From Microbotryum violaceum (lineage: Eukaryota), in NCBI GenBank assembly GCA_001244265.2, contig CDLV01000008.1:2046001-2110000 (forward strand): a DNA stretch of 64,000 nucleotides, given 5' to 3'. Below, in pieces: positions 1 through 62,300 of this stretch (the stretch's first letter is position 1; every line of letters begins with the position of its first letter). The notes below the pieces were generated by a model that was not told where the DNA came from, ran no database searches, and saw only the letters and a program-made list of their open reading frames with translations. The position numbers and the translations under genes are program-made.

Positions 1-32
1 CGTCTTCGCGTCTTCGCGTCTTCGCGTCTTCG
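1..32. repeat. (CGTCTTCG)x4 microsatellite, probably intronic, truncated by the window edge
   Basis: Four perfect 8-bp units at the window start. Confidence 0.9.
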
Positions 33-51
33 CCACGCCCATCGCTCGCAG

Positions 52-979
52 AGCCCAGGCCTGCGCCTGAAAGAGGAGCTTAGCAGCAGGATCCCCTACT
101 CGCTCAATCTCCACAAGTTCCTCGCGTCGCCCGACCCCCAACTCGACATCGACGTTGAATATGTCACGTTTGCGGGTACCAGGGGGCAGGAGGAGCCGAT
201 GCAAGCTCTCTTTGACCAACTCAATGCTGTTGTGAGTTCGGTCGCTCTTCATACAGGGAAGTGATGTGACGCATCTTACTGATATTTTCCAGTTCGTGCA
301 TCAGGGTCAAGCGGTTCGGGGTCAAGCGTTTCGACGTGTCGGCACTAGTGAGGTTCTGAGCGTGCCCGTTTCGACGTCGGAAGAGCCACTTACCTCACAT
401 GGAGCAAGCACCCAATGCAGTGACGTTGTTCACTTTTGCTTCCACCGACCACATCGAGACGGTATGGAAGATGACAAACGAAGAATGGTACCGAGAGAAG
501 GCACGATTGGGTCGGATGCGGGTCGGCATCCGACCCATTCATCCGACCCATTGTCGGCGAATTAACCAGGTCCTCGCTCCGGGAAAGACGAAAGGCAGGC
601 ACAAGGCAGGCGCCGCCGCTCGGCAGATATTCCGCCGATTCTATCCCATCAAGTCGACAATCGCCCTTCGAGGGTTCGTCTATGCTTTCACACTAGCCGA
701 GGATGGCTTCCGAGTCCTGTTCCACATTCCGGGCGGGATCATGCAAACAAACGAGTTCAATTGTTCGCGGCCCGAAGTATCAAGCTCCTCCTTCGGTTCC
801 CTGTCCGACTTGTTATCGACACTGAACTCAACCTCGGTGCAATCATCTCGGGCGCCGCTTATCCGCTCACGGTCAACACTCTGCCGCCGATCATCAGCGT
901 CCTACCTCAGCGGAATCGGCCGCGAACGTTCGACATGAAGCTCGTCTTTGGGAACCGATCTACCGCAACGACGCGATGA
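52..979 (+). pseudogene. Decayed intron-containing gene, probably the N-terminal part of a fungal-type protein kinase (FunK1/Pkinase_fungal-like); its 3' part forms the left arm of a long inverted repeat
   Basis: Exon 52-231 (SPGLRLKEE...DQLNAV) and GTGAGT...ACTGAT...CAG intron 232-292. Downstream frames give RQIFRRF...RGFVYAFTLAEDGFRVLFHIPGGIMQTNEF...LLRFPVRLVIDTELNLG...LVFGNRST, resembling the FunK1 R-FV-GFTL...R-W-FDRSG...LG...GR-T region. Frameshifted, with no catalytic kinase motifs present. Confidence 0.4.
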
Positions 980-1346
980 CTGGAAGCCGAGCGGTATATT
1001 ACCCTGGTCTCTGGCGATTGACCTACCGCAACGACAGCTGCAGGGTAATGAACCGCTCGGCTTCCAGTCATCGCGTCGTTGCGGTAGGTCGGTTCCCAAA
1101 GACGAGCTTCATGACGAACATTCGCGGCCGATTCCGCTGAGGTAGGGCGCTGATAGATGATCGGCGGCAGAGTGTTGACCGTGAGCGGATAAGCGGCGCC
1201 CGAGATAATTGCACCGAGGTTGAGTTCAGTGTCGACAACAAGTCGGACAGGGAACCGAAGGAGCTTGAAGCCTTCGGGCCGCGAACAATTGAACTCGTTC
1301 GTTTGCATGATCCGCCCGGCATGTGGCACAGTCGGACTTCGAAGCC
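705..1346. repeat. Long imperfect inverted repeat (arms 705-1006 and 1041-1346, 34-nt spacer); candidate hairpin RNA
   Basis: The reverse complement of 1041-1346 aligns to 705-1006 with scattered substitutions and small indels. The ORF track shows near-identical peptides on opposite strands (e.g. 902..1099- and 948..1145+). Confidence 0.97.
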
Positions 1347-1405
1347 GACTGACACATCTTCTGTCCCTCGTCTCCGCACTGGAGTAAATACCTCAAATAC
1401 ACCTC

Positions 1406-1591
1406 CTTATATAGGGGTACGGTACCTGGTACCGCCTCTTGCCGGATATCTTTGCCAGCTCTATCTCGATTGAAAGACGCTTGACCTTTTTTTCATGCTT
1501 TGCGAAGGTCAGACATGGTCGACACGTCGGGGCAGGCGGGGCTCGGTGCCTATTCTCCGATTGGTCGATTGGTCGATTGGTGGGGGCGGGG
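1406..1591 (-). promoter_or_regulatory. Putative Pol II promoter facing the hairpin: TATA box, three CCAAT boxes and a GC box
   Basis: TATATAAG on the minus strand at 1406-1413. CCAAT on the minus strand at 1560-1564, 1568-1572 and 1576-1580, followed by GGGGGCGGGG. Confidence 0.55.
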
Positions 1592-2064
1592 CCCGGCGAG
1601 GGCTTGGTTGACCGCGGCCCCCCGACCTCTCAAGCGCAATCCATCGCCCTAACGTCGCTCGGACGTCAACACCAGATTGATCATCCTCCGGTCCTCAATC
1701 GCGATGTCAAAGAGCGTGTGCAAGGCGTGTGCAAGGCGTGTGCAAGGGAACGAATAGTACCATCTGCTCCCCAAGCTGCTTCAATTTCGTTCTCTCGCAA
1801 CCTAAGGAGCATTCCCGAGCTGGACCGTGATGCCGGCTTCATGAAGGTCCAACATCATGGCACTGTCAAGGCTCGAAGGCCTCCCTTTGCGACTCGCTCC
1901 GTCATCGCATAATTTAGGACAACGAGATCCCTTGCAACCAGGTAGAGAGGGGTACTACAAGAAGCACTTCTTGATGGCATACTAAGTCCGATCAAGCCGG
2001 ACAGTCGGACCGAGGTCGAGCTCGAGCTCGAGCATCCAATAGTTGGGTCGTTCGCCCGAACCGC

Positions 2065-4801
2065 TCAGGCCACGTATCGGAACGCGGGATGACTGTTGGC
2101 CGGTAGCACAAAGACACAGTCAGCTTCTCTCTCGAGACTGCTCTCCAAGCCATCATCTCGGTCACACTCACTCTTCAGCGAGCTCGTTCAGTGCCTCTTG
2201 CGGCATCTCCTCGAGTCCCCAAACCTTGATCCTGGCCTGCTGTTCCTCGGGCGACAACTGATCAAAGTCCTCGTCGCCATCCTGAGCGGGACCGTACTTG
2301 GCTTCCTTGGCCAAGTTCTCGCTCCTCAAATGAAGCGTCAGACCGAGAGATAGGATCAGAGTCATGAGCGCGAACCCGAGTCCGACGCTGTGGCCTCGGA
2401 TGAAGCGCGGCGAATCTTGCTTGAAGTAAACGAGAGAGGAGACGATACCACCGGCGCTGTGTAGGGAAGTCGCCGGGATGTTCAACATCTACTGTAACGT
2501 GCGCTGAAAGCTGCGCCTGGCACTCACTTTCCGACACTGAAGAACAGGCCCATGGCTGCGGAGCGCTTCGTTCGATTCGGATAGTTGTTGCCCTATGATT
2601 GAAAGAAACATCATCTTGATATCAGCTTCGGCAAACTTTAGCAATGGTGTGAGTGTGTGTAGACTCACGATCCAAGAGATGGAGTTGGAGATCTGAGTAA
2701 TTCAAGGGTCAAAAAGATTCGTCAGTTGCCGTAGCACCGCCTCGAATAAAGATAGCCCCCTCACAACCCAGTCTGAACTCACGCAGGGGCAAAGTCCTCC
2801 GACGCAGAGGAAGAGAGCGAAGTACGCAACCTTGGGGTCCGTCCTCGGGTCACGCGCGAGCAAGATGATGAATCCGATCGAGGCCAAAGAAATCCAAACC
2901 ACGTTGAACAAGCCGCGATGGCCGAGTCGGTCAGAGTAGAGCGCGCCTGAATAAGGATAGGAGTGACCCGCAGCCGATTCGATCGCTGATCAGCAGGGGC
3001 GACTTGAGGGCTCTAAAAAAGCGCGCCTATGCTTACTGAAGAGAGTCGTTGCGAAACCCAGGAAGAAAGGTGGGGTCGACATGAGCTGACTTTGAGACAG
3101 GCTAAACGTGCCAAGCGCCGCGACAATGGTCGGGATAAAGAGCGCGATAGAGTAGAATGGCTCGGCAACTCCCTGAGGAAGAGCAAGGTCCGAGGGGATC
3201 AGAGCTATTCGCAAACGATTGCAAGTAAATTCCAGAAGTTAGATTCGTCCAGACTCACAATGTAGATCAAGGTGAAGCAGTACGTCTTCCAGTCCGTGAA
3301 CGCGGCTCTGACTTGCGACCAAGCGAACTCGGTTTGCGACGATGGACCCCGGTCGGCCTTGAGACGGCGGAGCACCTCTTGTTGTTCATCCTGGGTCAGG
3401 AAATTGGCCTCTTCCGGGAAGTCCGTCATGACAAAGGGTGCGACACAAGCGACGAGGAATGTCACAATACCCTCAATCTGATTGAGATTTGTTACGCCGA
3501 GGTGAGCAAAGTGCGTCGGTCGCGACCCACGGACAGTAGCTGAAGTGTACGCACAATGAAGATCCATCGCCACCCGGCCAGACCACCCAGACCGTTCATC
3601 ATCGACAAGCCATGCCTAATAAGAAGAAGATGTAATCAGCACGCGTACGATTCCGAATATCCAAGAACGAAGATGCAGTAAGGATCTCACGCAATCAAGC
3701 CACCGAAAGCACCCGCGAGCGTCGCAGCCGAGAAGAAGAAACTGATGCGGATGTTCTGCTCCTTCCTCTTGTACCACGAGGTGAGATAGAAGCAAGCGGC
3801 AGGGAATAAAGGCGCCTCCGCGAAACCGAGGAAGAAGCGAGCGGTGGTGAGGCCGGTGAAATTGGTGACCAGACCCATCAAGGTCATGACGACACCCCAG
3901 ATTATCATCGCTGCGGGAAGGAATCGGGAGGGTCTCAAGCGGCGGACAAAGATGACCGCGGGCGTTTCAAAGAAGACACTGTGGATAAGTGGCCAGATTA
4001 GAAACGGAAACCTCATTTGTAATAATCCTAAGGGAGCTGTAATCGTTGAGGGCGCTTACTAGGAAGTAAAGAAGACCAGGAGAGCGATGGAGAACTGGTT
4101 GCCCTTGAGGTGAAGATCCTTTTCGAGTCCGTTCACTGCCCGTGATCAAGCCGAGAGATGATAGGCAGGGTAAGTCCATGGTCCTTCCACTTCACCCGAG
4201 AGGCGGAAAGCTCAAATGAAAAGGGCCTACGTCGAGCTTGTCCGCTGATAGTGCGGAATCGTACCGCAACGAGGGAAAACTCGTCAGCCGTCAGCCGTCA
4301 GCCGAAACAGGAACGAAGGCCAGGATGAGGGCTCACATGTTGACGCGATCCAAAAATGACATCAAATATAAGAGCCTGCGCCATCATTCCCAAAATTTAG
4401 CACTATGTCCCAACCCGAATTCCGGCGCAACCACACACCGACGAAGCGGTGTTGGAGGGATGCCGACCGTAACCTCCGAGGCGAAGCGAGGCGATTCCTC
4501 CTTCGGGCACCGCTGTCGCGTCAAGCTGTCGTCGAACTCACGAGAGGAAAGGTACAACCTTCCAATCGATCTGAGTGAGGGTCCAACGTTCGAAGGAGTC
4601 AGTCATAATATACACATCCCAACACGCTGCTACCGGGTCACCCACCTTGCGTAGTAGTCGTTGTTCGGCCGCCTTGGAGAAAGGCACGCCAGGTCCGGCG
4701 ACAGCGATCTCCGAGGCCTTCTCATCATCTTCGACACCGGAACCGGCGTGGCTGCCATTCATGGAGGCGCGATGTTGCAGGACAGGTTGTAAGTTCGACA
4801 T
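2065..4801 (-). CDS. MFS transporter, anion:cation symporter (allantoate/nicotinate permease, Dal5/Tna1-like) family; multi-exon
   Basis: Exons encode EQRLLRK-IDWKVVPFLS-LLYLMSFLDRVNI, ARFFLGFAEAPLFPAACFYLTSWYKRKEQNIRISFFFSAATLAGAFGGLIA, IEGIVTFLVA...DFPEEANFLT, AFTDWKTY, YSIALFIPTIV, DSPRFIRGH and the C-terminal HPAFRYVA*. Confidence 0.93.
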
Positions 4802-5525
4802 GGCAATAGTAGAGCACCGACCGGCGGTAGTGGAAAGTTAAGTGTGTCAAAGGTCAAGAAGACGAAGAAGAAGACAAGTCCAAGACGTGTTGGCAATGAA
4901 GAGAAAAGTCGATGCCCCCGACTCGGCACCCTCTCATTCGATTTTGGGCCTGCATTTGGACCTGATTCGGTCACCAGTGCCTCGGAACCCGTCGCAGCGC
5001 CATTCTCGCGCACCTTCCCGTTCGAGACATCAATTGGCCTGGAACGCACTGCCAAAAGAAACCCTACCTGGAGCGTTAGGGGGCGCTGTCACAAGTGTAG
5101 GATGTTCTGCTGGTGATGCTCACAAGATGTCGAACTGTGGCCGGGTGCTGAGCTAGCTCGTGCGACGTTTCGTCAGCCCTCGCCGTCGGTCGGACCTAGG
5201 GGCATGTTTTTTTTTGTCCAAACCTGGCCGAAGCACACTGAATCTGACGATCTCTTTCATCTCGCAAGATGTCGTATACTCAAGCTCATGGACTGCAGCG
5301 TGGTCTAGTAGTGTGGTAGAGTCAGAATCGCAGACTGTGCCGAGTGAAGGCCCGTGCGCGCGGTCAAAGCATCGTTGTTCTCGAGTTATCGCGATAGAAT
5401 GGAAGGGTGAACAGCTTAGATTGATCTACGCCACTGAATACGGAGCACATCAAATTGATTACATATGGAGTACAGCCTCTACGCATTTCCCAGAACGATA
5501 GGTAACCTCAAACGGCTACGAACGC

Positions 5526-8298
5526 CTACAACTTGCTCCCCTTGGACTGACCCATCTCGGGCCCGACCTCCAGCTCCGTTTCATGGATGTTGACGTTGAA
5601 GCGCGTCTTGTTGAGCGGCTCGGCCTGGGCGAAGCGGACGATCGCGGGATAGACGTCACCATCGTAGCGACCGAGGGCCGAGTTGAGTTGGTAGTCCGGG
5701 ATACCCCACGAGTCAACGAGAGGGACGGCTTGCGGTCGCAGATCGGCCAGGAGCGCGTGGACGCGGTTGCGCAACAACTCGTGTTGCTTGGGCGAGATGT
5801 AGCCCGAAGACAGGAACTCGGCGGCTGCGAGGGAAAGGCAAGGAGAGAATGCGTCAGCGACATAGCGCATTCAAAGTCGTGCGGCAATGCGATGCGAATC
5901 CCTGGAAAAAAAGTCTCACCCTCCGAATCCATGGTGTAAGTCGCAAACAACTCGAAGCAAGTCGTCATGATGCGAAGCAAAGCAGGTTGGCTCTGCAAGT
6001 CCTTGTCGGTCTTGATCGCCCTGGCAAAGTTGTACACGAGCACGAACTGCGAGTGCGCGACTGACATCCTGAAAATGTCAATCAGGAGCGAGTTCCACGT
6101 TCTCCGCTCAATGTCGCGCTTGCGCAAAGCCGTGGCGGTCAAGTAAGCTGCTCGGTGACCAAACGCCTGGATGAAGAATTCGGGGTCGGCAAGATCACCG
6201 GCGTACTTGGCCGACGCCTTGGCCTCGGGGTCCGAGATGTAGCGGAGGATGTAGTCGCGCGTTCGGTTCTCGGACGACATCGGGGCGTCGCGGTCGGCCA
6301 AGAGGACGCGGAAAGTCTTGAAGAGGTAGCGACCGACTTGCTGCGTCAACATGTATGAATCACCTTCCCACGTGACCTGGGGCAGGTAGTCCGCGTAGAA
6401 TGACGCCAAGCCACCGGAAAGCGAGAAACCGTGACCACCGCATGCTCGTCGGCACTCTTCGATCGCCCCCGAGGCCATGATGGTGCACAGACTCTTAAGT
6501 CCCGAACTCGAGGCGTGGACGTCGGCCAATCGCGAAAAGTCACCGTCGGCCATCGCGGTCTGGTTTTCTTCGTACAGGCGGAACATCTCCTTGCCCGTGT
6601 AGTGGCACGCGAAGGCTTGTACGAGCGGCGGGAAGATGCGGTGTTGAACAAGCTGGTAGTTGAGCACCTGGGTCTCGGCGGGCTTGTTGCCGTCCAAGAC
6701 GGGGGCGTCTCGATCAGCGAACTGGCGACGGACGGCGCAGTATCGGATGGCAATCGTGGCGGATCGGGCGAGCACCATACGTGCTTGTTGAACACTGCGG
6801 ACATGCGATTACCGTCAGCAACTTGGTACGCTAGGTCAAAACGGGCGCTCGGGTCTGCTCACATGTTGGCGCGGATGTAGGTCATCGTTCCGTAGCTCAA
6901 GCGGGCGTTGACGGGCTTTTCAAACTTCCCCGTCTCGATATCGACCTTGGCCCATCGGGCGAGGAAGTTGATATGCGGGATTTCGACGTTGTCGAGGAGC
7001 ATCGCACCGTTGTCGGTCATGGCGTAACCGGCCTTGGGTCCGATATCCATGATTGTGCGTCCGGGGAGGAGTTCGCGGGTTTTGACGTCGCGCAAGGGGA
7101 CGACGAAGGGGTAAGGGCCTCGCTTGACGAGCTTGCCATCTCGTCCGTCGGGGGTGTGCAACTGAGCCATGACCACGGCATGGTCGGCCGTACGCCCGAG
7201 ACCTCCGATCCACCTGAAGCGAGAGAAATCGTGCGCAAAAGACTCGATCTTTCAATTCGAGAATCCGGGCGAAACGGGTGACCGTTGCAGATCACAACAA
7301 GACTGACCACTTCATGGCGGTCAAGGACGGCGATTGCAGCTTGAAGGTCTTGGACTCGGGCTGGTAGACCGCAATTGTCTCGAGACCTTGGACGTTCGAT
7401 CCGTGGCCCAACTCGGTTTGAGCATAGCAGCCTGTCGAATGAGAACACCGGTTCCAGAAATCAGCCTCGAGCAAAGCAGGAGATAGCCGAGGTGTTCTTC
7501 AGGGTACGCACCAATGATTTCAAAATTCTTGGCGGGCTCGTAGAAGAGCTTTAGCTGCTCTTCGTTCGATTGTTCAGCCAAAGTCTTGAGGAACATGGAC
7601 CTGTAAGAGCCGGCGAAGAAGGTGCGGTCAGTTTCTAGTTGCTCGGGCGCCTGTTCCTCGTTCCTCTTCGATCGAACCGGCCGCGGACCGTGGCGAGGCA
7701 ATCGCCACCGGCTAGCCCGAACCCAGTCCCACCACTCCGCCAAAACGACTGCGCCGCTCACTGCTGGATCCAAGAAACTCACTTGTGCAACCCGAAAGCA
7801 GCGGGCCAATCCAACATATCCTCGGCAAGGGCGTGGTCCTTGGCGGACCAGTCCAACTCGGTGAGCAACTGCGCGAGACGCTTCTCCTTGGCGAGACCGG
7901 CCTTGAACTTGTCCGTTCGGGACATGAAGTGGATCCGTGACTTGTCGAACGCGGGCTGAAGGGTGGGATGAAGTGCGATTCGAGTCAATCACTGGGATAT
8001 GATGAGTCGATGTGCAGGAGGACTGGGATCGGGCCGTTGCAACCTCCAACGATCGACCAGCGAACCCTTGCCGCTAGCGCTGCAGAGTCACCAAAGTGGA
8101 CAAACTGACCTCATTCTCAAGTACGGCCAAGATCCTCTTGACCCTCTCCAAATGCTCCTTGCCATGGAGGTACAGGGTCAGGTCGTCCGAGCTGAAACTC
8201 GCCTTGGCGCGTTCGATCTCGAGCAGCCGTGAGCCGGGCGTGCCCGCCGGTTTGCTCAGGTGCGCTGGGATCTCGATGTACTTGACGCCGGGATCCAT
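5526..8298 (-). CDS. POX1: Peroxisomal acyl-CoA oxidase; multi-exon
   Basis: LEIERAKASF, GLH-SMF, GCYAQTELGHGSNVQGLET, KWWIGGLG, DIGPKAGYAMTDNG, TIAIRYCAVRRQF, EECRRACGGHGF, QVTWEGDSYML, LNSALGRYDGDVY; ends in the PTS1 signal SKL*. Confidence 0.96.
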
Positions 8299-13822: not shown

Positions 13823-14558
13823 ACATCCGCCTCCGCCTCCGCATCACATCAATCACAAACACAAAATTTCACTCCTTCAACCGGGCAGAATTCTGGTCTC
13901 GAAACCGAATACAAAGCGGGTGCGTTAGTGGGCTTCTGCATCTCGCAATGCTTCATCCGAGTCCTGGGTGATCCGCTAAAGTTATCTCGATCTTTTTACA
14001 GCTGGACTGGCGCTTGTAGCTTTTATGGTCACTGCAACTGTCCTACACGTGTTCGTGTTCTGGTGGTGTAACAGCGACCTGTTGTACCGCACCTGCCTCG
14101 GTGTCCTCCTGACGGGCACCGGTTTCACTATCGCGAGACGTTCGACATTGGGGCAGTTTTCGACGGTGACATTAAGCAGGCCATCTCTTGGGTGTGAGTG
14201 ACTTTGCCGACCCCAATAAAGCAAGTCTTCAGATCGATCATTGATGTTTTCTTCGCGATAGTGAAACGGGTGCCCGTCAGGAGGACACCGAGGCAGGTGC
14301 GGTACAACAGGTCGCTGTATGTAGCACCACCAGAACACGAATACGTGTAGGACAGTTGCAGCGACCATAAAAGCTGCCAGCGCCAGTCCAGCTGTAAAAT
14401 GATCGAGAGAACTTTAGCGGATCACCCAGCGATGAAACATTGCGAGATGCAGAAGCCGCTAACGCACCCGCTTTGTATTCATTTTCGAGATCAGGATTCT
14501 GCCCGGTTGAAGGACTGGAATTTTGTGGTTGATGTGGTGGGGACGCGGAGGCGGATGT
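13823..14558. repeat. Second long imperfect inverted repeat (arms 13823-14136 and 14253-14558, ~116-nt spacer); candidate hairpin RNA
   Basis: The reverse complement of 14253-14558 aligns to 13823-14136 (e.g. acagcgacctgttgtaccgcacctgcctcggtgtcctcctgacgggcacc is mirrored exactly), with substitutions and indels increasing outward. Confidence 0.97.
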
Positions 14559-15060
14559 GGCTTGCGAGCCGGGCTGCTCCATTTTGCCAGTCAAACTCAG
14601 GAGAGGAGATGAGGTTGGCAGCGGCAGCCGCTTGAATTGATCAGCACGAGCCTCTTCGAGTGGGAAAAGCTGGGACGCGTAAATATGGGTGCATGATGAG
14701 ACGATACTCACCTTGACTGTCCTTCAACTAAGCGAGTGCGTGTGTCAGCATGGAGCGAGTGGATGATGGCGGGAAAGAAAGAGACTTATGGACCTCGCAG
14801 CGGGCCCATATCGGCAGTTGGCCGGTCTTCCGAATAAGGTCGCACGAGTGACGAGCGATGATCACCTTCAGGAGTCAAGACCGAGAATAAAATGGTGAAA
14901 GATGCCGAGGACCGAGGTCATCACCATCCTGACATTTTTTTGTAGATACGTCCAGCGAGGATCACGGTCAATGAAAACATGATGAGGTTCAGGTCTATGG
15001 TGGGCCCGAGTGCAGGCATACAGTCGCACCACCTTTGAATTCGACGAGAGCCCACGAGCT
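14253..15060 (-). pseudogene. Probable decayed intron-containing gene of unknown family whose 3' part forms the right arm of hairpin 2
   Basis: Minus-strand splice-like signals (GTGAG at ~14711, GCTGAC at ~14744-14749) and broken hydrophobic reading frames; no recognisable domain. Confidence 0.3.
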
Positions 15061-32301: not shown

Positions 32302-35121
32302 TCACAAAGTCGAACTTCTGTGACTCGGAGCACCGCGCAACGACTGCAGAGAGGCCGGCCTGTACTAGGCTCTGTACGAACGTTGATATGTGTGCTGTAG
32401 CAATCGCAAGCCCCCTCAGTAGAGCATCGATTACAGCGCAAAAAGAGATATGGTACATGAAACGATACAGGGGCCGAATCACACAACTGCTATGGTTTTA
32501 CAGGACGCTGTATGCCCACCCAGTGACTTCCTCTGGTTCAGATTGGATGATCTGGACCAAGGGCATTGCAAATAGGTACCACTTCTGCAACATGGGGAAG
32601 TAATGATGTCTCACAGGGCCATTCTCATCGCTATCATTATCGGCGTACCGTTCCGCCGCCAGCTTCTTCGCAATGGAGAATGAGGCGGCTATGTTTGATG
32701 TGCAAGAAAGAGCTTGGGGTAAGGATCCGCCTGATAGTTTTTCTGTGCAAAATGGTTTTTGGTCACTTGCCTACGTTCAGATGCTTGATTAGTCTTTTTG
32801 GTGTCCTTGATAAATGTCTTCACCAAACTAGCATTTGTGCCCCAAGTCTTCTTGAGTAATGTCTCAGTGGGAACCTGCAACTGATGAAGAGTGACAAGTA
32901 GGCAATGCCGGTCAGCCAAGCCAGCGCACTCTGCCATGCCATTCAGGATACTGACTCACACTCACGTAAATCTCCCGATTCTTGCTTCCTGCCAATGGCT
33001 TCGCATTGCTGAAAGGCCATGCCAGTTTGTTACCTGGGACCAGCTGGAGATTGACGCTTTCTTCTGGGTATGAGACTTCAGCCAGTGCCCGCGCTCCGAG
33101 CCCATCCCGATGAACCCCATAATCATGGACCTTAACTAGCCTCCAAGCCTCACTGATGTAAGCCCATGCGCATGAACGAGCAAGCGAAACACTGTAGTAA
33201 AAAGCCGTATTAACTCTGGAACACAGGAAGTTCTACAAAGCGGCATACATTGAGGCCACTTACGCTCCAGAGAGCTTCTTGAATTCGTCTGCGCGCAGAT
33301 CCTTCGTGACACCACGTTCACACATATGATGCATCATGTCGTCCTTTGTTCCTCTTTGGAGATCTCATGCAACTTATGTAAGTACAATCCGCATAAGTTA
33401 CAGCGGATGAGGTTCTGAGTGAAGGCGACCGGCGTTCCACACAGCCCTCCCGCGGCACAAGTTGGGCATCTGAGCTTGACCATGACAGACTTGTGCGCCC
33501 GATACTCGTCCTCGAACAGCGAATGCCCTGGGTGCAAGCCGTTAGCCTGTACACAAAGAGCGGATGTTCAGAGAACCGATGGCCGTGACACCACCATTGT
33601 GGCAGCCAATGCGCCATCACGTCCACGAACGTACCTTTTCCAGAATCCTTAACTTGTCAATTTGGTACTTACGGGCGGAGCTCGCTTCCCAGAATTTTTT
33701 GAACGTCTGACGGGCCGCCTGTCCTCCCTCCTCCACGGCGCCCTCCTCCAGACCCATGAACTCGTAGCGCTGACGCGCCATAGCCACGGTCGGTAGTAAG
33801 AGTCCCTCAGCGTTCACATCGGGGTTTCGCCTGCACGCGCCGTACGTTTGCGCAGCAGATGGCTCAAGGTCGGTCGGTAATCATCAATTCCAGCAAGGTC
33901 GTCCATCGCCTTGTCAGAAAGGCATTGAGTGATCGCAGCGCATTCCGGTTTCTTTTGTACACCCACCAGCTATAAGAAGCCGTGGCGCGCAAATCTGGGA
34001 CCAGCTCGGTGGCGAGATGCGCAATTGACCCCATTGGATTGAGTCCATCATATTGATGCCATTGAAGTTTGCCATCCGGACTCATTGCAACCCCACCTTT
34101 CGTTGAAATGTGTTGATGGCGTAGCTGAGTGACTGCTCGGAACGACCAACGGTGCTCCAAGCCAGTGTCATCGCGAAAGACCAGGTTTGAGCTTCAAGCG
34201 TCCGGCGTCCAGCAGGGTACGGTGCTTTGCTTCCGTTGTGCATGATGGTGAAGCACGTGGGTTGTCAGTTCGGATATGGCCCCTGACGATGGACAGTGAA
34301 CGGGCAGCCGCGACGATGGGAATGTCCGTTTGCTCACCGAGCTGTAGTAGTCTACTCGTTGGCGAATCTGTGGCTCGTAAAGCTTTTTCTCCGATCCAGG
34401 AGACAGGTCCACTTCATTGATGGACTAGAAGAAGTACATAAAATTTAGGGGTGGAAGTAACGATGGTGACTTACGCAGTACGCACCCTTCGCAGTCTGAC
34501 CGGTGAATGTGAATGGGTCGCGTCAACGTCGTCCGAGAAGCCTGCTGGGAGGACCCCGCGGGCTCAACGTCCTCAAACACGTCTTCGAGGCTCGATTTCC
34601 AATGAGGTTTCGAGCTTGATTCATGTATGTGTGTTGGCTCCAAGGGAAAAGTAGCTGAGAACGCCGGTGGCGACGCAGCGGCACCGGGTAGGTCGAGGAC
34701 TTGGGGACGCGTCCGCCGCGATTGAAGTCTTGCTTCACGCTCAGATATCGGAGGTGGGGCATGAGCCTTTGGCGTCCATTTCTTTCGTCTTCCACGGGCC
34801 ATCGTTGGTGGCCTGGGTGGTCGACTCAAAGGAAGCACCTTCCGACGCGGGCCCGCAGATGGCCGGGTGTGGCACTGACGCCGAAGTGAGACCTAATTTG
34901 TCGGACAAATTAGTCCTCTGAGTCAAGTCGCCAGGTTGACTTATCCGTCACGGCTAAGTGCGACTTTGCAGGGTTGACAGTACTTAATGTTGGGACTAGG
35001 TATCAGCTTACCGCCTTGATTGCTACAGCATACATATCAACGTTCGTACAGAGCCTAGTACAGGCCGGCCTCACTGCAGTCGTTGCGCGGTGCTCCGAGT
35101 CACAGAAGTTCGACTTTGTGA
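32302..35121 (-). mobile_element. 2.8-kb DNA element with 104-bp terminal inverted repeats and a degenerate internal Cys/His-rich gene
   Basis: 32302-32405 and the reverse complement of 35018-35121 differ at only 2 positions. Internal minus-strand remnants include MARGRRKKW..., ...SYSWWVYKRNRN... and RCPTC...LCG...IRCNLCGLYLHKLH. Confidence 0.85.
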
Positions 35122-48945: not shown

Positions 48946-51435
48946 GCATTGCTGAGAAGTATGTGTAATTGTCAATGGGGAGTCTTCTTGCACGTTCGTG
49001 CGGTGAGATTGGAAAAGAGGACGTCAGCCGCTCGGCTTTCTCGTCTTTTGTCCCTCCACACCTCGCTCATTCCCCCTCGCCTCGGTTGATGAACCGCGCC
49101 CTCGGGCGAAGAACCCTGTCAACTTTTACAGAATATCAAATTTGAGGTGTCGAAGGCGAGGTGCGCAGCAGGATCCCGACGTTGACACTTATCCCGGTGA
49201 GCGCAGGTTCGTCCTTCCATCCACCAGCACTTTTCCCCATGAGCTATCCCGCCGATTGCGATGAACTCGGACAGGCTTCTCGAGACAAGTGGATCCGACT
49301 CCCCGTTCAGGGATCGCAGAAGATAACGGTCGATTCGTTGCAGCGTCGGTGTGTCTTACTATACTGGCCTAGCCATTTCTTCCGACTCGATTTTCCGAAG
49401 ATTACTAGGCATTGATATTGTTATGGTGTTATTTGAGCCTAATTCAATCAAAAACAACCGCGGGGCCGACGGCTTCCTCAGCGTGTCCGCTCTCCCTCAT
49501 CAGCGCGCTTTCGCACGATCCCACCGACCTACGAAACAATGGAAGGACCAAGCAAAAAGACCACACCATTGGCCAAGATCTTTCCCAGCCCCTTTTCGTT
49601 CCAAGGTTCGCAGTACAGCGAGGGAAAGACCCCGATCCTCGCTAGACGTGAGTGCGCGTGTTCACCGCTGGTTTCCGCCGGCGCCAAGCACCGTCTACGC
49701 CATAACCCGAGCGAATTCCAGCCCCAGAAACACATCGGAGGAGTGGTATGGCTCATGTTTGAAGCAGCTGCGACAGCATGGTGTGAATCTGCCTCCGTCG
49801 TCACGTGCAATGCTGCTCTTCGCCAGTTCAGTCGCGGCACGCGTGACATGCAACTCCCGTCCGCTAGCGGCGCGTCGGCACGTGCCTGGCTTGGCCCAGG
49901 AAGACCGAGGAAGACGGCTCGCTGCCCGATGTGGGGCACCTCTCTTGAGTGGGCAGCGGCCATCGAGCACCCGTGGTTCGAGCAAGCACATCACCCAAGC
50001 GATCACATCCACTGATCGGCACGTTTTCTTCACGTCTGATATTGTACAGCCCCGTATACCCTCCACGAAATCGAAATGAAAGCGCTGTCATATTCGATTC
50101 GCTCGAATAAGGCCGACTGGCAAACGAAGCGGCTCAGTCGCGAGATCAGAACCAAATGGGCAATAGAGGCCTTGGAGCAGAGCGCGGAGAAAGCGCACAT
50201 GGCGTTCAAGCAGATGACGCTCGAAAGGCAACCCCTAACCTTTTGGATGGTCGACTACGTCTTGGAGGAGCTCGAACAGCACGCGAGGATGGAGCGCGTC
50301 GTCGACGGCCAGTGGAGGGTGAGTAGCCGGTTTTGGCGCTCGCGTGAAGCAGCACCAGCTGACTCGAGTGTACCAACATCATTTGTTCCCGGGTAGGAGA
50401 GCTGCTTTGACGGCATCTTTGAATCGGACCGCCTCATCCCTGATGGTCTACGATCGGCGCTGATTCGTCAAGTTGCCAAGCTCGAAAACGTTCCCGAGGA
50501 ACAAAAGGACTGGCACCCAGGATCGAAGAAGCAGGTCCTCGATCTCGTGCACCCATCTCTGTACCCGCTCGTCTACAAGCAGTCCGTGGTACGCAAATCC
50601 CTTGATGGGGAAATGCAACCAGGCACCACAGCTGCGTCGGCGGTGACCCTCGCCGAAGCACCCGCTCCCAAACCAAGTTCAACGTCCGCCATACCCACCG
50701 GCTTCGACGACGCAGACGAGACCTCGTACCTCTAGAGTCAGTACCAGTGGTTGCCCAGCGACTTTACGCTCGACGAGAATGGAGGAGTATCGATTGATGG
50801 ATACATCAACAACCTGCACCCCGACGACCATGCCGATTTGTACGACACCATCGCCGTCATCTTTTCGCAATTCGTGCCCCTCTTTGACCAGACGCTATCG
50901 GAACTGATCGAACCACGTCCCCGCGCGATCCCTGTTATCGATTCGCATAGCAATCATGGCCTCGCCACCGATGCGATGGACGTATTGGAGCGGGAGGTGG
51001 GGGTTCGACCTTCCGCTCGGGGTAGTCGTGGTGCCTGCATCCTCAGGCAGGGGCAACAACTCCAGCCCTTTCTCATACTTGCCCAACCTCCCCTCCAAAG
51101 CTTCACTCCCTCTCATCAACGTCCCGACCAAAGCCTTCAACGCTCCCGAAGTACACACGAGAAGCTGAGGTCTGAAAATGGCACGAGGTTCGAACGAGGC
51201 GATCGTCGATAAGAGGTGGATCGCAAGTGATTCCACCCTTTCTTCCCTTCTGAATCGCACCAAAGTGTTCTCAAACTTCCCCATCTTTTTTCTCGCGCAG
51301 TCACTCGCGCCATGGCGATCGCAAAGAGCAACATCCACGACACGCGGATTTCGGCCCAGCGCTAGCTTTTAGATCCAAAGACGGGCACATTTCCTATGAT
51401 GCCCTCATTCGTCCTGTAGAGCCGTCGTTTGCTCA

Positions 51436-51552
51436 TCGAGACGGTGTCGCACTACTTTTTCGGGTGCGCGTACTCCGCCAGCTACTGGAGCGGGGTGCTG
51501 CGCATCCTGTTCGACATGCTCGGCATCGAGGATACCGACGTCGATCCGTCGA
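51436..51552 (+). mobile_element. ~115-bp fragment of the zinc-finger region of the L1-like element found at the window end
   Basis: tcatcgagacggtgtcgcactac...gataccgacgtcgatccgtcga is nearly identical to the reverse complement of ~59608-59726 (IETVSHYFFGCAYSASYWSGVLRILFD). Confidence 0.92.
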
Positions 51553-51630
51553 GGTACTAGGTACCGGTCTAGACCCGGTCTACTTGCTTGTACCTGATGG
51601 CGCCCGCCCGGCGTTGACGTTGAAACGTGG

Positions 51631-59347: not shown

Positions 59348-62300
59348 TCACACCTCCCAATCTCGAGCCCCAGAAACAAAACCCGCCCGAGAGAGAAAAT
59401 CTCGCTTGAACGCTCTAAGTGCACTGGGGATCGAGGGAGGGGCCACGACGCGGTCCTTCTCGAACCGCTGGTGGACGTGCCAGCGCAGCAGGTGCAACCG
59501 CTAGAACCCAATCGCACAAGCCAACCGAACCCACATCCACTTCGAAGTCGTTCTCCCACGACCCCGCAAAAGGGGGAGCCCCATAGTCAGCTGCTCCTGG
59601 GTGAACGTCGACGGATCGACGTCGGTATCCTCGATGCCGAGCTTGTCGAACAGAATGCGCAGCACCCCGCTCCAGTAGCTGGCCGAGTACGCGCACCCGA
59701 AGAAGTAGTGCGACACCGTCTCGATGACCGCTGCATCGTTGCCACAGAACAGACACGACGGCGAAGAAGCATGGCCCTGGACATGTTGCTTCTTGCGCGT
59801 CGGTGTCACATCGTACATAAGCCGCCAGTGGGTGTCCTGCTCCGCAGCAGACGCGAACCGGTCATGAAGCCAACTCCAGAAGCGCTGCCTCCCGCTCTGA
59901 GAAGTCCCCTCGGGGAAACGCTTGACCCGAGGCTCCTGAGGTTGCCCACCAGGCAGAGCTCGGTCCTGACGGTCCTTCCCCGGGAACCGAACCGTGTTCA
60001 CAAGCCGACGAAGCTTGCGAATCGTGAACGGTCGAGTGAGCCCAAAGAAGTTGAAGCACCGAGGATGGGGATCCTCCTTGAGAGGGATCCTAGCGGGTCG
60101 CACCGCGGTCTTGGGCAGCAAGGCTTTCGCCTTGAGCAACTGACCCACGCGCGACCACACGTGCTCGTGCTGCAGGGCTGGTTCCTTAGAGTGCTGCCAG
60201 AAACCGCGTCGATGACCAACCAGAGCCCAGCCCTTTCCTTCGTCCCTCCAGTACAGGTCCGCGATCTGCGCAAACTTCGCCACTGCGTCCGCATCGTCAT
60301 ATGCGTGCTTGGCACCTTCAGCATAGAGTGAAGGGAGGCGAGGCGGAAGCGAGAGCAATTCGGGGAGCGTAAGGAGTTCGGACTTGATGGTTGGTAAGGT
60401 GACCCTGGCCGCTGCAACGACTGCCCCCAGCGCGTCGAGTCGCGATACAGCTTCTCGACCCGAGCCGTGCTGCTGAAGAACCCCCACGGACTGAAATCGC
60501 GGGTCGCAGCGACGAGGGACCTCCAGCTCTCGCGAGCTAGGGGCGCCCAGATCGCCTCGTTCGAGCCCGCCACAGCATCCCAAAATCGAAGCGCCACCGA
60601 ATGAACGATGTCGCCGATTAAAATCAAGCCCAAGCCACCGTCCTCCCGAGCCTGGAACACGAAATCGCGAGCGACGGTATTTCGCCCTGCTCCTCCCCAA
60701 ACAAAATCCGTAAGTGCTGTCTCCGCCGCCTTAATGAACCATTGAGGCGGTATGTCGAAGGACAGCACGTGGAGGACCGTCGAGATGATGTGAGCGTTGG
60801 CATAGAAGACCTTCCCACTCGGCGAAAGTGTCCGGTCTCCAGCGGCGCGGGTCTTGGCTTTGATCCTGTCAAGAACATGGGTCCAAAACAGTTTCGAGTC
60901 ACCGTGGCGAAAGAAGGCATAGCCGCACCACTTGAAGCTCTCCCCCTCCTGCACCGTTGGCAGCGCCTGCGCAGTCTCGTCCCGAAGCCAGTTCGGTCCG
61001 AGTGGTAGCACCAGCGTCTTGTCCGTGTTGGTCTTCCCGTTGGTTGCCTCGTACCACGTCTGCGACAGCGTTTCCAGCTTCGACAATGCCGCCGGTGACT
61101 CCACCACCACCACAGCATCGTCGGCAAACGCCAGATGCGTAAGCTGCGCACGTGGCCCCCCTGGCCACACCTTCTGCAGGTCGAGCGCGATCCCGCGCCG
61201 AACGAGGGCGTCGAGGAAGGGCTGGAACGTGATGTTCCAAACCGGGCACGAGAGGGGATTCCCCTGACCGAGACCACACAGCAACCGCACCAACTCCGTG
61301 GGGAACCTATTGATGAGGTAGCGCACCCCCAGAGTCTCGGGATCGTACAGAGCGCGCAGCAGGGAAATGAAACGCTCACCAAAGCCAAAGGCCTCGAAGA
61401 CGTCGAAGATCCATGCGTGATCGACCCGATCGTACGCGCTCTGCTGATCCAAGGACAAGAGGGCGCCCTCTGGGAAAACATCAGTACCGAGTGATCGGAG
61501 TTTTTCGAGAAGGAGAGTGAGATGACTTCCCGCGTCCGCTGAACGTCTTGATGGCATGAACCCGTGTTGCGCCGGCGGCAAAAGCTCGCCGAGCACCCCA
61601 TTGAGTCGCGCCACCAAGACCTTGCTGAGGACCTTGTAGGTTGTCTCGCGCAGTGTGATCGGTCGATATGCCCCCAGTGATTTCAGATTGGCCCCCGGTT
61701 TGTTCTTGGGCAAAAGCCGCACCAGCCCCTCTGCCAAGGACGCCGTCATTTTACCCCCCTCCCAAATCGAGTTGAACAAATCCAACAGCTTGGGACCAAA
61801 GTAGGTTGGCAGCGCCTTGAAGAGCTCGTACGGAATGCCCGAGGGCCCCGGTGATCGCCCCGAATCCGTCTTCTTCAACGCCGCTTCAACCTCGAGGAGG
61901 GTGAAGGGCTCGTCAAGCGCCACTCTCGCTTGACGAGGCAGCCGACGACCGAACGTAGGGTCCGAGCGGTCGTCATCGTAGCATTTCGCCGCGCGAATAG
62001 GGTCGAACAGGGACCGACGTGGGTTCGTCGGGTCGCCACGAGCTGGGTCCGGCGTGAAGAGCGACTGTGCGTGCCGTGAAGCAATACCCAGCGCCTCCTG
62101 CATGTCAACGGTCTCGGTGCCATCCACATCCTCCAGCGAGACGATGCTCGTCTGGCGACTCCGGCGGTTGAGACGCGTGCGAATGCTTGCCGATTGACCT
62201 TCCCTCGAGTCGACTGACGGCACATGCGCACGAATGCGCAGCCACTGAGCCTCCTTTACCGCCAACTGGTCCAACCGCGACTTGGCAAAAGCATACGCAT

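What the first reader, a model, noticed from the sequence alone, without database searches (positions are those of the whole stretch)
705..1591. Hairpin 1 sits directly downstream of a textbook TATA/CCAAT/GC promoter on the minus strand
Arms 705-1006 and 1041-1346 with a 34-nt loop. TATATAAG (1406-1413, minus) lies 60 nt from the right arm, with three tandem CCAAT boxes and a GC box ~150-180 nt further upstream, and no credible protein ORF follows. The predicted transcript would begin with a small stem-loop (CAGTCGG-CTTCGAAGT-CCGACTG, ~1329-1351). The loop contains a 16-nt copy (1020-1035) of arm sequence 957-972, a possible template-switch scar.
Basis: partly seen in the sequence, partly recalled or inferred. 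Interest (0 to 1): 0.75.

Follow-up and report, generated by a model that had tools for sequence, protein, structure and literature searches.

The report
Fold-back copy of a kinase pseudogene
The hairpin is real, but it is a broken kinase-like gene of an anther-smut fungus whose middle piece was copied backwards onto itself, and the RNA seen on each arm runs on without a break from the neighbouring gene on that side.

Summary
The inverted repeat is real: arms 705-1006 and 1041-1346, a 34-nt spacer, 13 substitutions and 14 gap columns. Contigs of three DNA runs cross its centre, so it is not an assembly artefact.

The arms are not anonymous. They are a piece (codons ~198-296) of a Microbotryum-specific FunK1-type kinase-like gene. 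The left arm continues a decayed + strand copy of that gene. The right arm is its inverted duplicate, and the catalytic half is missing.

In one RNA run, a spliced + strand contig enters the left arm (to 833). An RNA contig joined by splicing to the convergent MFS transporter gene covers the proposed promoter and 232 nt of the right arm. The three CCAAT boxes are an 8-nt microsatellite, and the TATA consensus is not enriched.

Best reading: a fold-back truncated pseudogene lying tail-to-tail with its neighbour. It is a possible read-through source of dsRNA in an RNAi-competent fungus, like inverted-repeat small-RNA loci of stripe rust. No small RNA or loop-spanning RNA was shown. The scan had noted other, transposon-derived palindromes in this genome, not this one.

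The parts
1..231 (+). Exon of a decayed FunK1-type kinase-like gene; it runs off the window start. It corresponds to P0001 (MVLG_03326) residues about 34-73.
   Evidence: tblastn P0001 34-73 = 124-243, 77.5% identity; alignment A1
232..304 (+). Intron of the pseudogene (GTGAGT...CAG), removed in RNA
   Evidence: Joint 231>305, GT..AG, in an RNA contig of run X16; splice-site letters
305..704 (+). Body of the pseudogene, matching P0001 residues about 74-197. The match changes frame near 388-402. A 13-nt tandem duplication lies at 527-552, and the post-intron frame stops at 563-565.
   Evidence: tblastn frames 2 and 3; tandem repeats; ORF list
705..1006 (+). Left arm. It is the native continuation of the pseudogene (P0001 residues about 198-291), with frame breaks at 779-787 and near 895.
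   Evidence: RNA contig 305-833 covers its outer 129 nt
1007..1040 (.). 34-nt spacer. It holds the 16-mer 1020-1035, a copy of arm sequence: 16 of 16 to the reverse complement of 1075-1090, and 15 of 16 to 957-972.
   Evidence: DNA contigs 967-1080 (X1), 966-1081 (X14) and 894-1052 (X20) cross it
1041..1346 (-). Right arm: inverted duplicate of the left arm. On the minus strand it reads P0001 residues 199 to about 296 in one frame from 1317 down, with a 1-nt deletion near 1321.
   Evidence: phmmer E 1.8e-43, 78% identity; tblastn 1317-973; A1; RNA contig 1115-2092 covers its outer 232 nt
1329..1351 (.). Small 7-bp palindrome straddling the outer junction of the right arm (1346/1347). It may be the microhomology used when the copy was made.
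   Evidence: its role is inferred
1406..1413 (-). TATATAAG. It is a TATA-box consensus, but equally an A/T-rich UAUAUA-type element inside transcribed sequence downstream of the MFS stop codon.
   Evidence: covered by RNA contig 1115-2092
1558..1591 (-). (CGATTGGT)x3 tandem repeat, which gives the three CCAAT boxes, followed by a GC box
1115..2092 (-). Stretch with unbroken RNA cover, joined by splicing to the MFS exons. The strand is inferred from the CT..AC joint.
   Evidence: X16 contig of 978 nt with 0 differences; joint 2092>2172
1982..1984 (-). Stop codon (TAG) of the spliced MFS transporter reading frame. At least 867 nt of non-coding RNA cover follow it.
   Evidence: Pfam MFS_1 on 3687-4055
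2093..2171 (-). Last intron of the MFS gene (GTGAGT...CAG), found both spliced and retained in RNA contigs
   Evidence: joint, and contig 2063-2201

Best explanation
This is a fold-back (palindromic) partial duplication that cut a gene short. A + strand copy of a Microbotryum-specific FunK1-type kinase-like gene runs from before the window start to 1006. It is already decayed by frame breaks. At 1006 the sequence turns back on itself: after a 34-nt spacer, codons about 198-296 are repeated in inverted orientation (1041-1346). The catalytic C-terminal half is absent.

The most likely origin is a DNA break or replication template switch that copied the opposite strand for about 300 nt and then rejoined at 1347. 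It left a 16-nt templated copy in the spacer and a small palindrome at the outer junction.

The relic lies tail-to-tail against an MFS transporter gene. RNA contigs joined to each neighbour's spliced exons run into the arm on that side. Transcription of the arms therefore needs no promoter of its own. Both neighbours' RNAs carry the same sense of the arm sequence, so they do not pair with each other.

Only a molecule that runs past the centre would fold into about 300 bp of dsRNA. In this RNAi-competent fungus such a molecule would be a Dicer substrate and could give siRNAs against the kinase-like family.

Shown here: the structure, its gene origin, its presence in independent DNA data and in a sister species, and partial transcription of both arms. 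Inferred: the mechanism of formation, read-through across the centre, and dicing.
For: Structure.

Gene origin: the arm ORF 907-1392(-) hits 5 of 1.84 billion representatives. The best is P0001 at E 1.8e-43 and 78% identity, query 25-127 against protein 198-301. All five are Microbotryum proteins; P0001 is MVLG_03326 of M. lychnidis-dioicae. Four of the five carry PF17667 Pkinase_fungal.

Collinearity: the + strand 124-1005 matches P0001 residues 34-291 in order but in three frames. The minus strand 1317-973 matches residues 199-320 in one frame (alignment A1). No match to residues beyond about 320 reaches E 0.001 anywhere in the window. There is no significant kinase homology in 1347-2100 (best E 0.02).

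Both arms carry their own derived changes relative to the paralogues (A1), as expected for neutral decay.

DNA reality: contigs of X1, X14 and X20 cross the spacer. The 51-nt block shared by both arms has depth 433.8 against about 225-232 for the flanks, so there are two copies and no more (shared 31-mers).

Sister species: the M. silenes-dioicae model BQ5605_C001g00022 (P0002) reads through the left arm, the spacer and the antisense of the right arm. It carries the changes expected from variants 1024 T>C and 1120 A>G, which are also seen in X14.

Age: the arms differ at 13 of about 298 aligned bases. The window and X14 differ at 11 listed places plus one 11-nt indel over 190-3600.

RNA: X16 shows spliced joints. 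Its contig 190-231^305-833 enters the left arm. Its contig 1115-2092 is joined over intron 2093-2171 to the MFS exons. Bin depths over 2401-2760 equal the exon share alone, which leaves nothing for those introns, so this is not DNA carry-over.

RNAi genes (one Dicer, two Argonautes, one RdRP) are present and expressed in M. lychnidis-dioicae (passages of PMC4469406).
Against: Contigs give neither strand nor ends. The cover of 1115-2092 could therefore be the sum of an MFS 3' UTR and a separate transcript starting near 1375. If it is a single UTR it would be at least 867 nt, against a mean 3' UTR of 253 nt in this species (PMC4469406), which is unusually long.

Only one RNA run was laid. The formation mechanism is inferred from junction anatomy alone. 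The genome itself was not available, so neither the parent gene's DNA nor synteny in more distant species could be examined.
Confidence: 0.65

Rival explanations
1. One reading: a dedicated hairpin-RNA gene. A Pol II promoter on the minus strand (GC box, three CCAAT boxes, TATATAAG) starts transcription near 1375. The transcript runs through both arms and is diced into siRNAs.
For: All the motifs are present in the right order and spacing on the minus strand. TATAWAWR is rare in the window, at 3 sites in 64 kb. RNA covers 1115-1346. RNAi genes are present in the species.
Against: The same RNA contig covers the whole proposed promoter and is spliced to the MFS exons. The CCAAT boxes are an 8-nt microsatellite. 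The TATA count is no more than chance, with 28 of 100 shuffles reaching 3 or more. The 8 transition differences between the arms give G:U pairs equally often on either strand, 4 and 4 of 13 substitutions, so there is no sign of selection for a minus-strand fold. Both arms decay like a pseudogene.
Confidence: 0.15
2. A working siRNA source fed by its neighbours. Read-through from the pseudogene or from the MFS gene crosses the centre. The hairpin is diced, and the siRNAs hold down the intact kinase-like paralogues (MVLG_03326 type) or the two neighbours' own RNAs, which both carry the arm sequence in sense.
For: The architecture matches the inverted-repeat small-RNA loci of Puccinia striiformis. 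There, 14 of 33 gene-associated loci were long inverted repeats, some of them tail-to-tail gene pairs, and FunK1 kinases were among the predicted targets (passages of PMC4578785). Both arms are transcribed in part. The repeat has been retained since before the split from M. silenes-dioicae. A paralogue is expressed, seen as an X16 contig on 63-219.
Against: No small-RNA data exist for this genus in the library searched. No RNA contig bridges the spacer. In the whole-genome DNA run X1 no second-copy contig was laid on the arms at 85% likeness or more, whereas one was laid on 63-219, so near-perfect trans targets may be lacking. No compensatory changes were seen.
Confidence: 0.15
3. A fail-safe terminator for both directions. 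When either convergent polymerase passes the centre, the nascent RNA folds, is cut by an RNase III enzyme, and transcription ends.
For: The repeat sits at the meeting point of two convergent transcription units. The comparison with RNase III-dependent termination in yeasts is recalled, not tested here.
Against: There is no direct evidence. The repeat's origin as a gene fragment and its neutral decay need no such function.
Confidence: 0.04
4. A foldback transposon or MITE, or an assembly artefact.
For: Long terminal inverted repeats with a short spacer resemble foldback elements. Palindromes can also arise from chimeric reads.
Against: The arms are single-copy apart from each other, by DNA depth and by blastn within the window. 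I saw no target-site duplication at 704/705 and 1346/1347. One arm is collinear with its parent gene. Contigs of three DNA runs cross the centre.
Confidence: 0.01

Closest known systems
Inverted-repeat-associated small-RNA loci of the stripe rust fungus Puccinia striiformis (pst-sir-9, pst-sir-110; Mueth et al. 2015, PMC4578785; passages read)
   Same: The fungus belongs to the same subphylum. Long inverted repeats are made of gene sequence at tail-to-tail gene pairs. The authors propose that read-through past a normal termination site gives a hairpin that yields sRNAs. FunK1 kinases are among the predicted targets.
   Different: There the 18-22-nt reads were sequenced; here no small RNA is known. 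Here one partner is only a 300-nt fragment of a pseudogene, and the convergent neighbour (MFS) is unrelated to it.
Hairpin-forming inverted-repeat pseudogenes that give endogenous siRNAs (mouse oocyte loci, recalled; human psiPPM1K, PMC3616710, search listing and abstract start only)
   Same: A transcribed pseudogene carries an internal inverted duplication that could fold into dsRNA directed against its founder gene family.
   Different: Dicing and target repression are shown there. Here only the fold and partial transcription are shown.
Mu killer (Muk) of maize and similar natural inverted partial duplications
   Same: An inverted partial duplication of one sequence is read from a neighbouring transcription unit.
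   Different: Muk derives from a transposon and silences it heritably. This one derives from a host gene family, and no silencing is shown.
Fold-back inverted duplications at DNA breaks or replication template switches in yeast (PMC10622511, PMC11724301, PMC10766183; search listing and abstract starts only)
   Same: Inverted duplication with a short spacer, a templated short copy at the junction, and a small inverted repeat at a breakpoint.
   Different: Those are laboratory events, either very short (about 5-34 bp) or chromosome-scale. This is a fixed, old, 300-bp natural example, and its mechanism is inferred only from its anatomy.

Membership tests
Fold-back (palindromic) partial gene duplication | Two arms in inverted orientation, highly similar, with a short spacer | tested here: met
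   284 matches in 311 columns; 34-nt spacer
Fold-back (palindromic) partial gene duplication | One arm is collinear with the parent gene; the other arm is not flanked by more of that gene | tested here: met
   The + strand matches P0001 residues 34-291 in order. There is no kinase homology in 1347-2100.
Fold-back (palindromic) partial gene duplication | Junction signatures (templated insertion, microhomology or a short inverted repeat) | tested here: inconclusive
   A 16-nt copy of arm sequence lies in the spacer, and a 7-bp palindrome lies across 1346/1347. These are suggestive, but the pre-event sequence is unknown.
Fold-back (palindromic) partial gene duplication | Real in DNA, not an assembly product | tested here: met
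   Contigs of X1, X14 and X20 cross the spacer. The sister-species gene model reads through it.
Hairpin-RNA / inverted-repeat endo-siRNA locus | A long, near-perfect fold is possible | tested here: met
   -620.5 kcal/mol, z -68
Hairpin-RNA / inverted-repeat endo-siRNA locus | Both arms on one RNA molecule | tested here: inconclusive
   RNA contigs cover 705-833 and 1115-1346, each attached to a different neighbour. None bridges the spacer, and contigs cannot prove absence.
Hairpin-RNA / inverted-repeat endo-siRNA locus | 20-24-nt RNAs from both arms, dependent on Dicer | not testable with these tools
   No small-RNA run was listed. No Microbotryum small-RNA study was found.
Hairpin-RNA / inverted-repeat endo-siRNA locus | The host has RNAi machinery | not tested
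   Taken from passages of PMC4469406: one Dicer, two Argonautes, one RdRP, all expressed. I did not check this on sequence.
Pol II TATA/CCAAT/GC promoter | Consensus motifs in the right order and spacing | tested here: met
Pol II TATA/CCAAT/GC promoter | Motifs exceed chance and are independent of one another | tested here: not met
   TATAWAWR occurs 3 times against 1.81 expected, and 28 of 100 shuffles reach 3 or more. The three CCAAT boxes are one 8-nt tandem repeat.
Pol II TATA/CCAAT/GC promoter | A transcription start about 30-120 nt downstream | not testable with these tools
   Only contigs were available. RNA cover runs through the site without a break.
Foldback transposon / MITE | Multiple dispersed copies and target-site duplications | tested here: not met
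   There are two copies only by DNA depth and none elsewhere in the window. I saw no duplication at the arm ends.
FunK1-type fungal protein kinase family (PF17667), as parent of the arms | Homology to proteins that carry PF17667 | tested here: met
   In P0004 the Pfam match (residues 220-315) overlaps the arm-equivalent region. The window's own translations score no Pfam family, and the catalytic part is absent.

The most novel reading that the evidence does not exclude
The palindrome is a working RNAi module fed by two convergent host genes. Read-through from the MFS transporter gene or from the pseudogene crosses the centre and is diced. The siRNAs then tune the Microbotryum-specific FunK1-like kinase family, or the two neighbours themselves, since both carry the arm in sense. 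This would couple a transporter's expression to the silencing of a kinase family. It would be the first natural hairpin-siRNA locus described in anther-smut fungi.
Probability: 0.1. Interest if true: 0.6.

Novelty: new member of a known kind. Interest (0 to 1): 0.3.

Why it matters
On its own it is a tidy natural example of a small fold-back duplication that truncated a gene and was kept for far longer than the split between two sister species. It also shows how a promoter-like motif cluster can mislead when the RNA actually comes from the neighbouring gene. It would matter more if small RNAs are made. Anther-smut fungi have the RNAi genes, but my searches found no small-RNA study of them. This single-copy, gene-derived hairpin between two expressed genes would be a clean test locus. 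The earlier notes of this scan and a second, unrelated palindrome 13 kb away suggest that fold-back duplication is a recurrent mutational process in this genome.

Tried and rejected
No whole genome is held for the window. The parent gene's DNA, other copies and synteny could therefore not be searched.

Rfam: 0 matches in the window at gathering scores.

Pfam on six arm ORFs and on three flanking pieces: no family at E 0.01 or better.

Earlier notes of this scan: nothing near the finding, nothing by arm sequence, nothing by P0001, nothing by words.

Sequencing runs: no RNA holder was listed. X16 proved to be RNA only once it was laid.

In X16 no RNA contig lies on 834-1114, that is the inner arms and the spacer.

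X20, guessed to be RNA, behaves as low-depth DNA; its contigs cross introns.

Kinase homology to the right of the repeat (1347-2100): only weak, non-collinear matches, best E 0.02 in an 754-nt search space with six queries. I rejected it.

Fewness of stop codons in the arms: 18 and 20 stops over six frames, against a window mean of 16.8. This is not unusual.

Strand bias of G:U-compatible differences: 4 on each strand of 13. It gives no information on which strand matters.

The word-based protein search with P0001 residues 185-310 found only P0001 itself. The search with P0002 found P0002, P0001 and P0004, and no gene model from the window's own species among proteins of 175-559 aa.

Literature: three searches for Microbotryum with small RNA/Dicer, hairpin/inverted repeat, and Argonaute/RNAi listed no study of small RNAs or hairpin loci in this genus. 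This covers only the library searched.

Full report
**Observation.** The inverted repeat is real and at the stated coordinates. The repeat finder reports three collinear blocks: 736-777/1272-1313, 788-895/1156-1263 and 893-1006/1041-1154, at 95-98% complementarity. A global alignment of 705-1006 with the reverse complement of 1041-1346 has 284 matches, 13 substitutions (8 of them transitions) and 14 gap columns in 311 columns. As minus-strand RNA, 690-1400 folds at -620.5 kcal/mol, against -257 +/- 5.3 for shuffles (z -68; 0 of 20 as good). The motifs are all as described: TATATAAG (minus, 1406-1413), three CCAAT (minus, 1560-1580), the GC box (1583-1591) and the small stem-loop 1329-1351. The spacer 16-mer 1020-1035 matches 957-972 at 15 of 16 positions, and the reverse complement of 1075-1090 at 16 of 16.

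**Not an artefact, and single-copy.** Contigs of three DNA runs cross the spacer: X1 967-1080, X14 966-1081 and X20 894-1052. The contig breaks in the DNA runs fall where the two arms share exact 31-mers, at 845-895 and 960-995. The 51-nt shared block has depth 433.8 in X1, against 225-232 for the flanks. That fits two copies and no more. blastn finds the arms nowhere else in the window. A foldback transposon and an assembly error are therefore both very unlikely.

**What the arms are.** The longest arm ORF (907-1392, minus strand, 161 aa) was scored against 1.84 billion representative proteins and hit 5.
- P0001: E 1.8e-43, 78% identity, query 25-127 against protein 198-301.
- P0002: 71% identity.
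- P0003 to P0005: 54-56% identity.

By the sources' own names all five are Microbotryum proteins. P0001 is MVLG_03326 of M. lychnidis-dioicae, P0002 is BQ5605_C001g00022 of M. silenes-dioicae, and the rest come from M. saponariae and M. intermedium. Four of the five carry Pfam PF17667, 'Fungal protein kinase'. This agrees with earlier notes of this scan that the genome is Microbotryum. I did not otherwise verify the species.

**Gene anatomy.** tblastn of these proteins on the window and alignment A1 give the following picture.
- The + strand from 124 to 1005 matches P0001 residues 34-291 in the right order, but in three different reading frames.
- The minus strand from 1317 down matches residues 199 onward in a single frame.
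- Nothing in the window matches residues beyond about 320, the catalytic part, at E 0.001 or better.
- The stretch 1347-2100 has no credible kinase homology.

So the left arm is the native continuation of a decayed + strand gene copy. The right arm is an inverted duplicate of about 100 codons of it, and the rest of the gene is gone. Each arm has its own derived changes relative to the paralogues. Examples are the frame breaks at 779-787 and near 895 on the left, and a 1-nt deletion near 1321 and a Y>H change on the right. That is what neutral decay of a pseudogene looks like.

**Age and conservation.** P0002, the M. silenes-dioicae gene model, reads through the left arm, the spacer and the antisense of the right arm to a stop that corresponds to 1138-1140. 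It carries the residue changes expected from the variants 1024 T>C and 1120 A>G seen in DNA run X14. The palindrome therefore predates that species split. The arms differ at 13 of about 298 aligned bases. Over 190-3600, X14 differs from the window at 11 listed places and one 11-nt indel. On a neutral clock the duplication would be roughly ten times older than that divergence; this is my inference. In X14, 1120 and 1207 are G, which matches the left arm, so the window's A at both places is a recent change in the right arm. No compensatory double change was seen.

**RNA.** X16 is an RNA run. It shows GT..AG and CT..AC joints, and the bin depths over 2401-2760 equal the exon share alone, leaving nothing for those introns.
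- One contig joins 190-231 to 305-833 across the + strand intron 232-304. The pseudogene is therefore transcribed and spliced, and its RNA covers the outer 129 nt of the left arm.
- Another contig covers 1115-2092 with 0 differences. It is joined across the minus-strand intron 2093-2171 to the exons of the MFS transporter gene (Pfam MFS_1).
- After that splice the MFS frame runs 36 more codons to TAG at 1982-1984.

Unbroken RNA cover therefore runs from the MFS exons through the GC box, the CCAAT boxes, the TATA box, the proposed start site and 232 nt of the right arm. A contig does not prove one molecule, and it gives no strand or ends.

Each arm is thus attached to the convergent gene on its own side. 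In those orientations both RNAs carry the same sense of the arm sequence, so they are not complementary to each other. Only a molecule that crosses the centre would form the hairpin.

**The promoter.** The motifs exist but carry little weight.
- The three CCAAT boxes are a single tandem repeat, (CGATTGGT)x3. It is one of six short tandem repeats in the first 2.1 kb, and a neighbouring one (1714-1747) is length-polymorphic in X14.
- TATAWAWR occurs 3 times in 64 kb against 1.81 expected by chance; 28 of 100 shuffles do as well.
- TATATA reads the same on both strands. From recalled knowledge of yeast 3'-end signals, it is also the kind of A/T-rich element found near mRNA 3' ends.

A second transcript overlapping the MFS tail therefore remains possible. 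The transition differences between the arms give G:U pairs 4 times on each strand (of 13 substitutions), so the sequence does not favour either strand.

**How it most likely arose and works.** The anatomy fits a fold-back or template-switch event of the kind studied in yeast (PMC10622511, PMC11724301, PMC10766183; search listing and abstract starts only). Its features are:
- one arm collinear with its gene;
- a sharp outer boundary at 705/1346;
- a 34-nt spacer holding a 16-nt copy of arm sequence in its ancestral spelling (C at the place where the left arm now has T, and where the paralogues have Thr);
- a 7-bp palindrome across the outer junction.

In such an event, synthesis turned onto the opposite strand for about 300 nt and then rejoined downstream, losing the rest of the gene. 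This is inference from anatomy. Functionally, I read the locus as a relic that is transcribed passively from both sides.

M. lychnidis-dioicae has and expresses one Dicer, two Argonautes and one RdRP (PMC4469406). Any read-through across the centre should therefore be diced. The closest described parallel is in the stripe rust fungus. There, 14 of 33 gene-associated small-RNA loci were long inverted repeats, some at tail-to-tail gene pairs. The authors proposed exactly this read-through hairpin, and FunK1 kinases were among the predicted targets (passages of PMC4578785).

Against a trans-acting role, no second-copy contig was laid on the arms in the whole-genome DNA run at 85% likeness or more. 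One was laid on 63-219, with 20 differences in 157 nt.

**Verdict.** The promoter-driven hairpin gene is only partly supported. The object is a fold-back truncated kinase-like pseudogene at a convergent gene junction: a new member of a known kind, of modest interest, and a good test locus if small-RNA data are ever made for this fungus. Three literature searches found no small-RNA or hairpin study in Microbotryum. The scan's earlier notes describe other palindromes in this genome, transposon-derived ones, but not this one.

Noticed in passing
window 13823-14560: A second long palindrome, unrelated in sequence to the first. Its arms are 13823-14136 and 14253-14560, with 284 matches in 320 columns and a 116-nt spacer. 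On the minus strand the right arm begins just after an ATG at about 14582 and reads a hydrophobic stretch, so it may be an inverted copy of a gene's 5' part. No Pfam family was found.
   Followed up: partly
window 2093-2171: The last intron of the MFS transporter gene is found both spliced (joint depth 116.8) and retained (contig 2063-2201, depth 63.9) in RNA run X16. If retained, the frame stops in the donor GTGAGT. If spliced, 36 more codons are added.
   Followed up: partly
window 1714-1747: The 11-nt tandem repeat (GCGTGTGCAAG)x3.1 is one unit shorter in DNA run X14.
   Followed up: no
window 25-219: A diverged second copy of the pseudogene's first exon is seen as contigs in X1, X14 and X16. 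It has 20 differences in 157 nt, 255-258 extra letters at 62/63 and about twice single-copy depth, and it is present in RNA at depth 52. It is probably an expressed paralogue of the kinase-like family.
   Followed up: no
window 866-1185: In both DNA runs the contigs over the palindrome centre have lower depth than the flanks: X1 119-171 against about 228, and X14 8-15 against about 21. This may be the usual loss of palindromic fragments in short-read libraries.
   Followed up: no
window 32302-32405 / 35018-35121 and 51433-51555 / 59605-59727: Two further inverted pairs: 104 nt at 98% identity, 2.6 kb apart; and 123 nt at 96% identity, 8 kb apart. They may be ends of mobile elements or inverted duplications.
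   Followed up: no
window 5516-8073 (minus strand): An acyl-CoA oxidase gene (Pfam ACOX_C_alpha1 at E 3.3e-55, plus ACOX and Acyl-CoA_ox_N), an ordinary neighbour.
   Followed up: no
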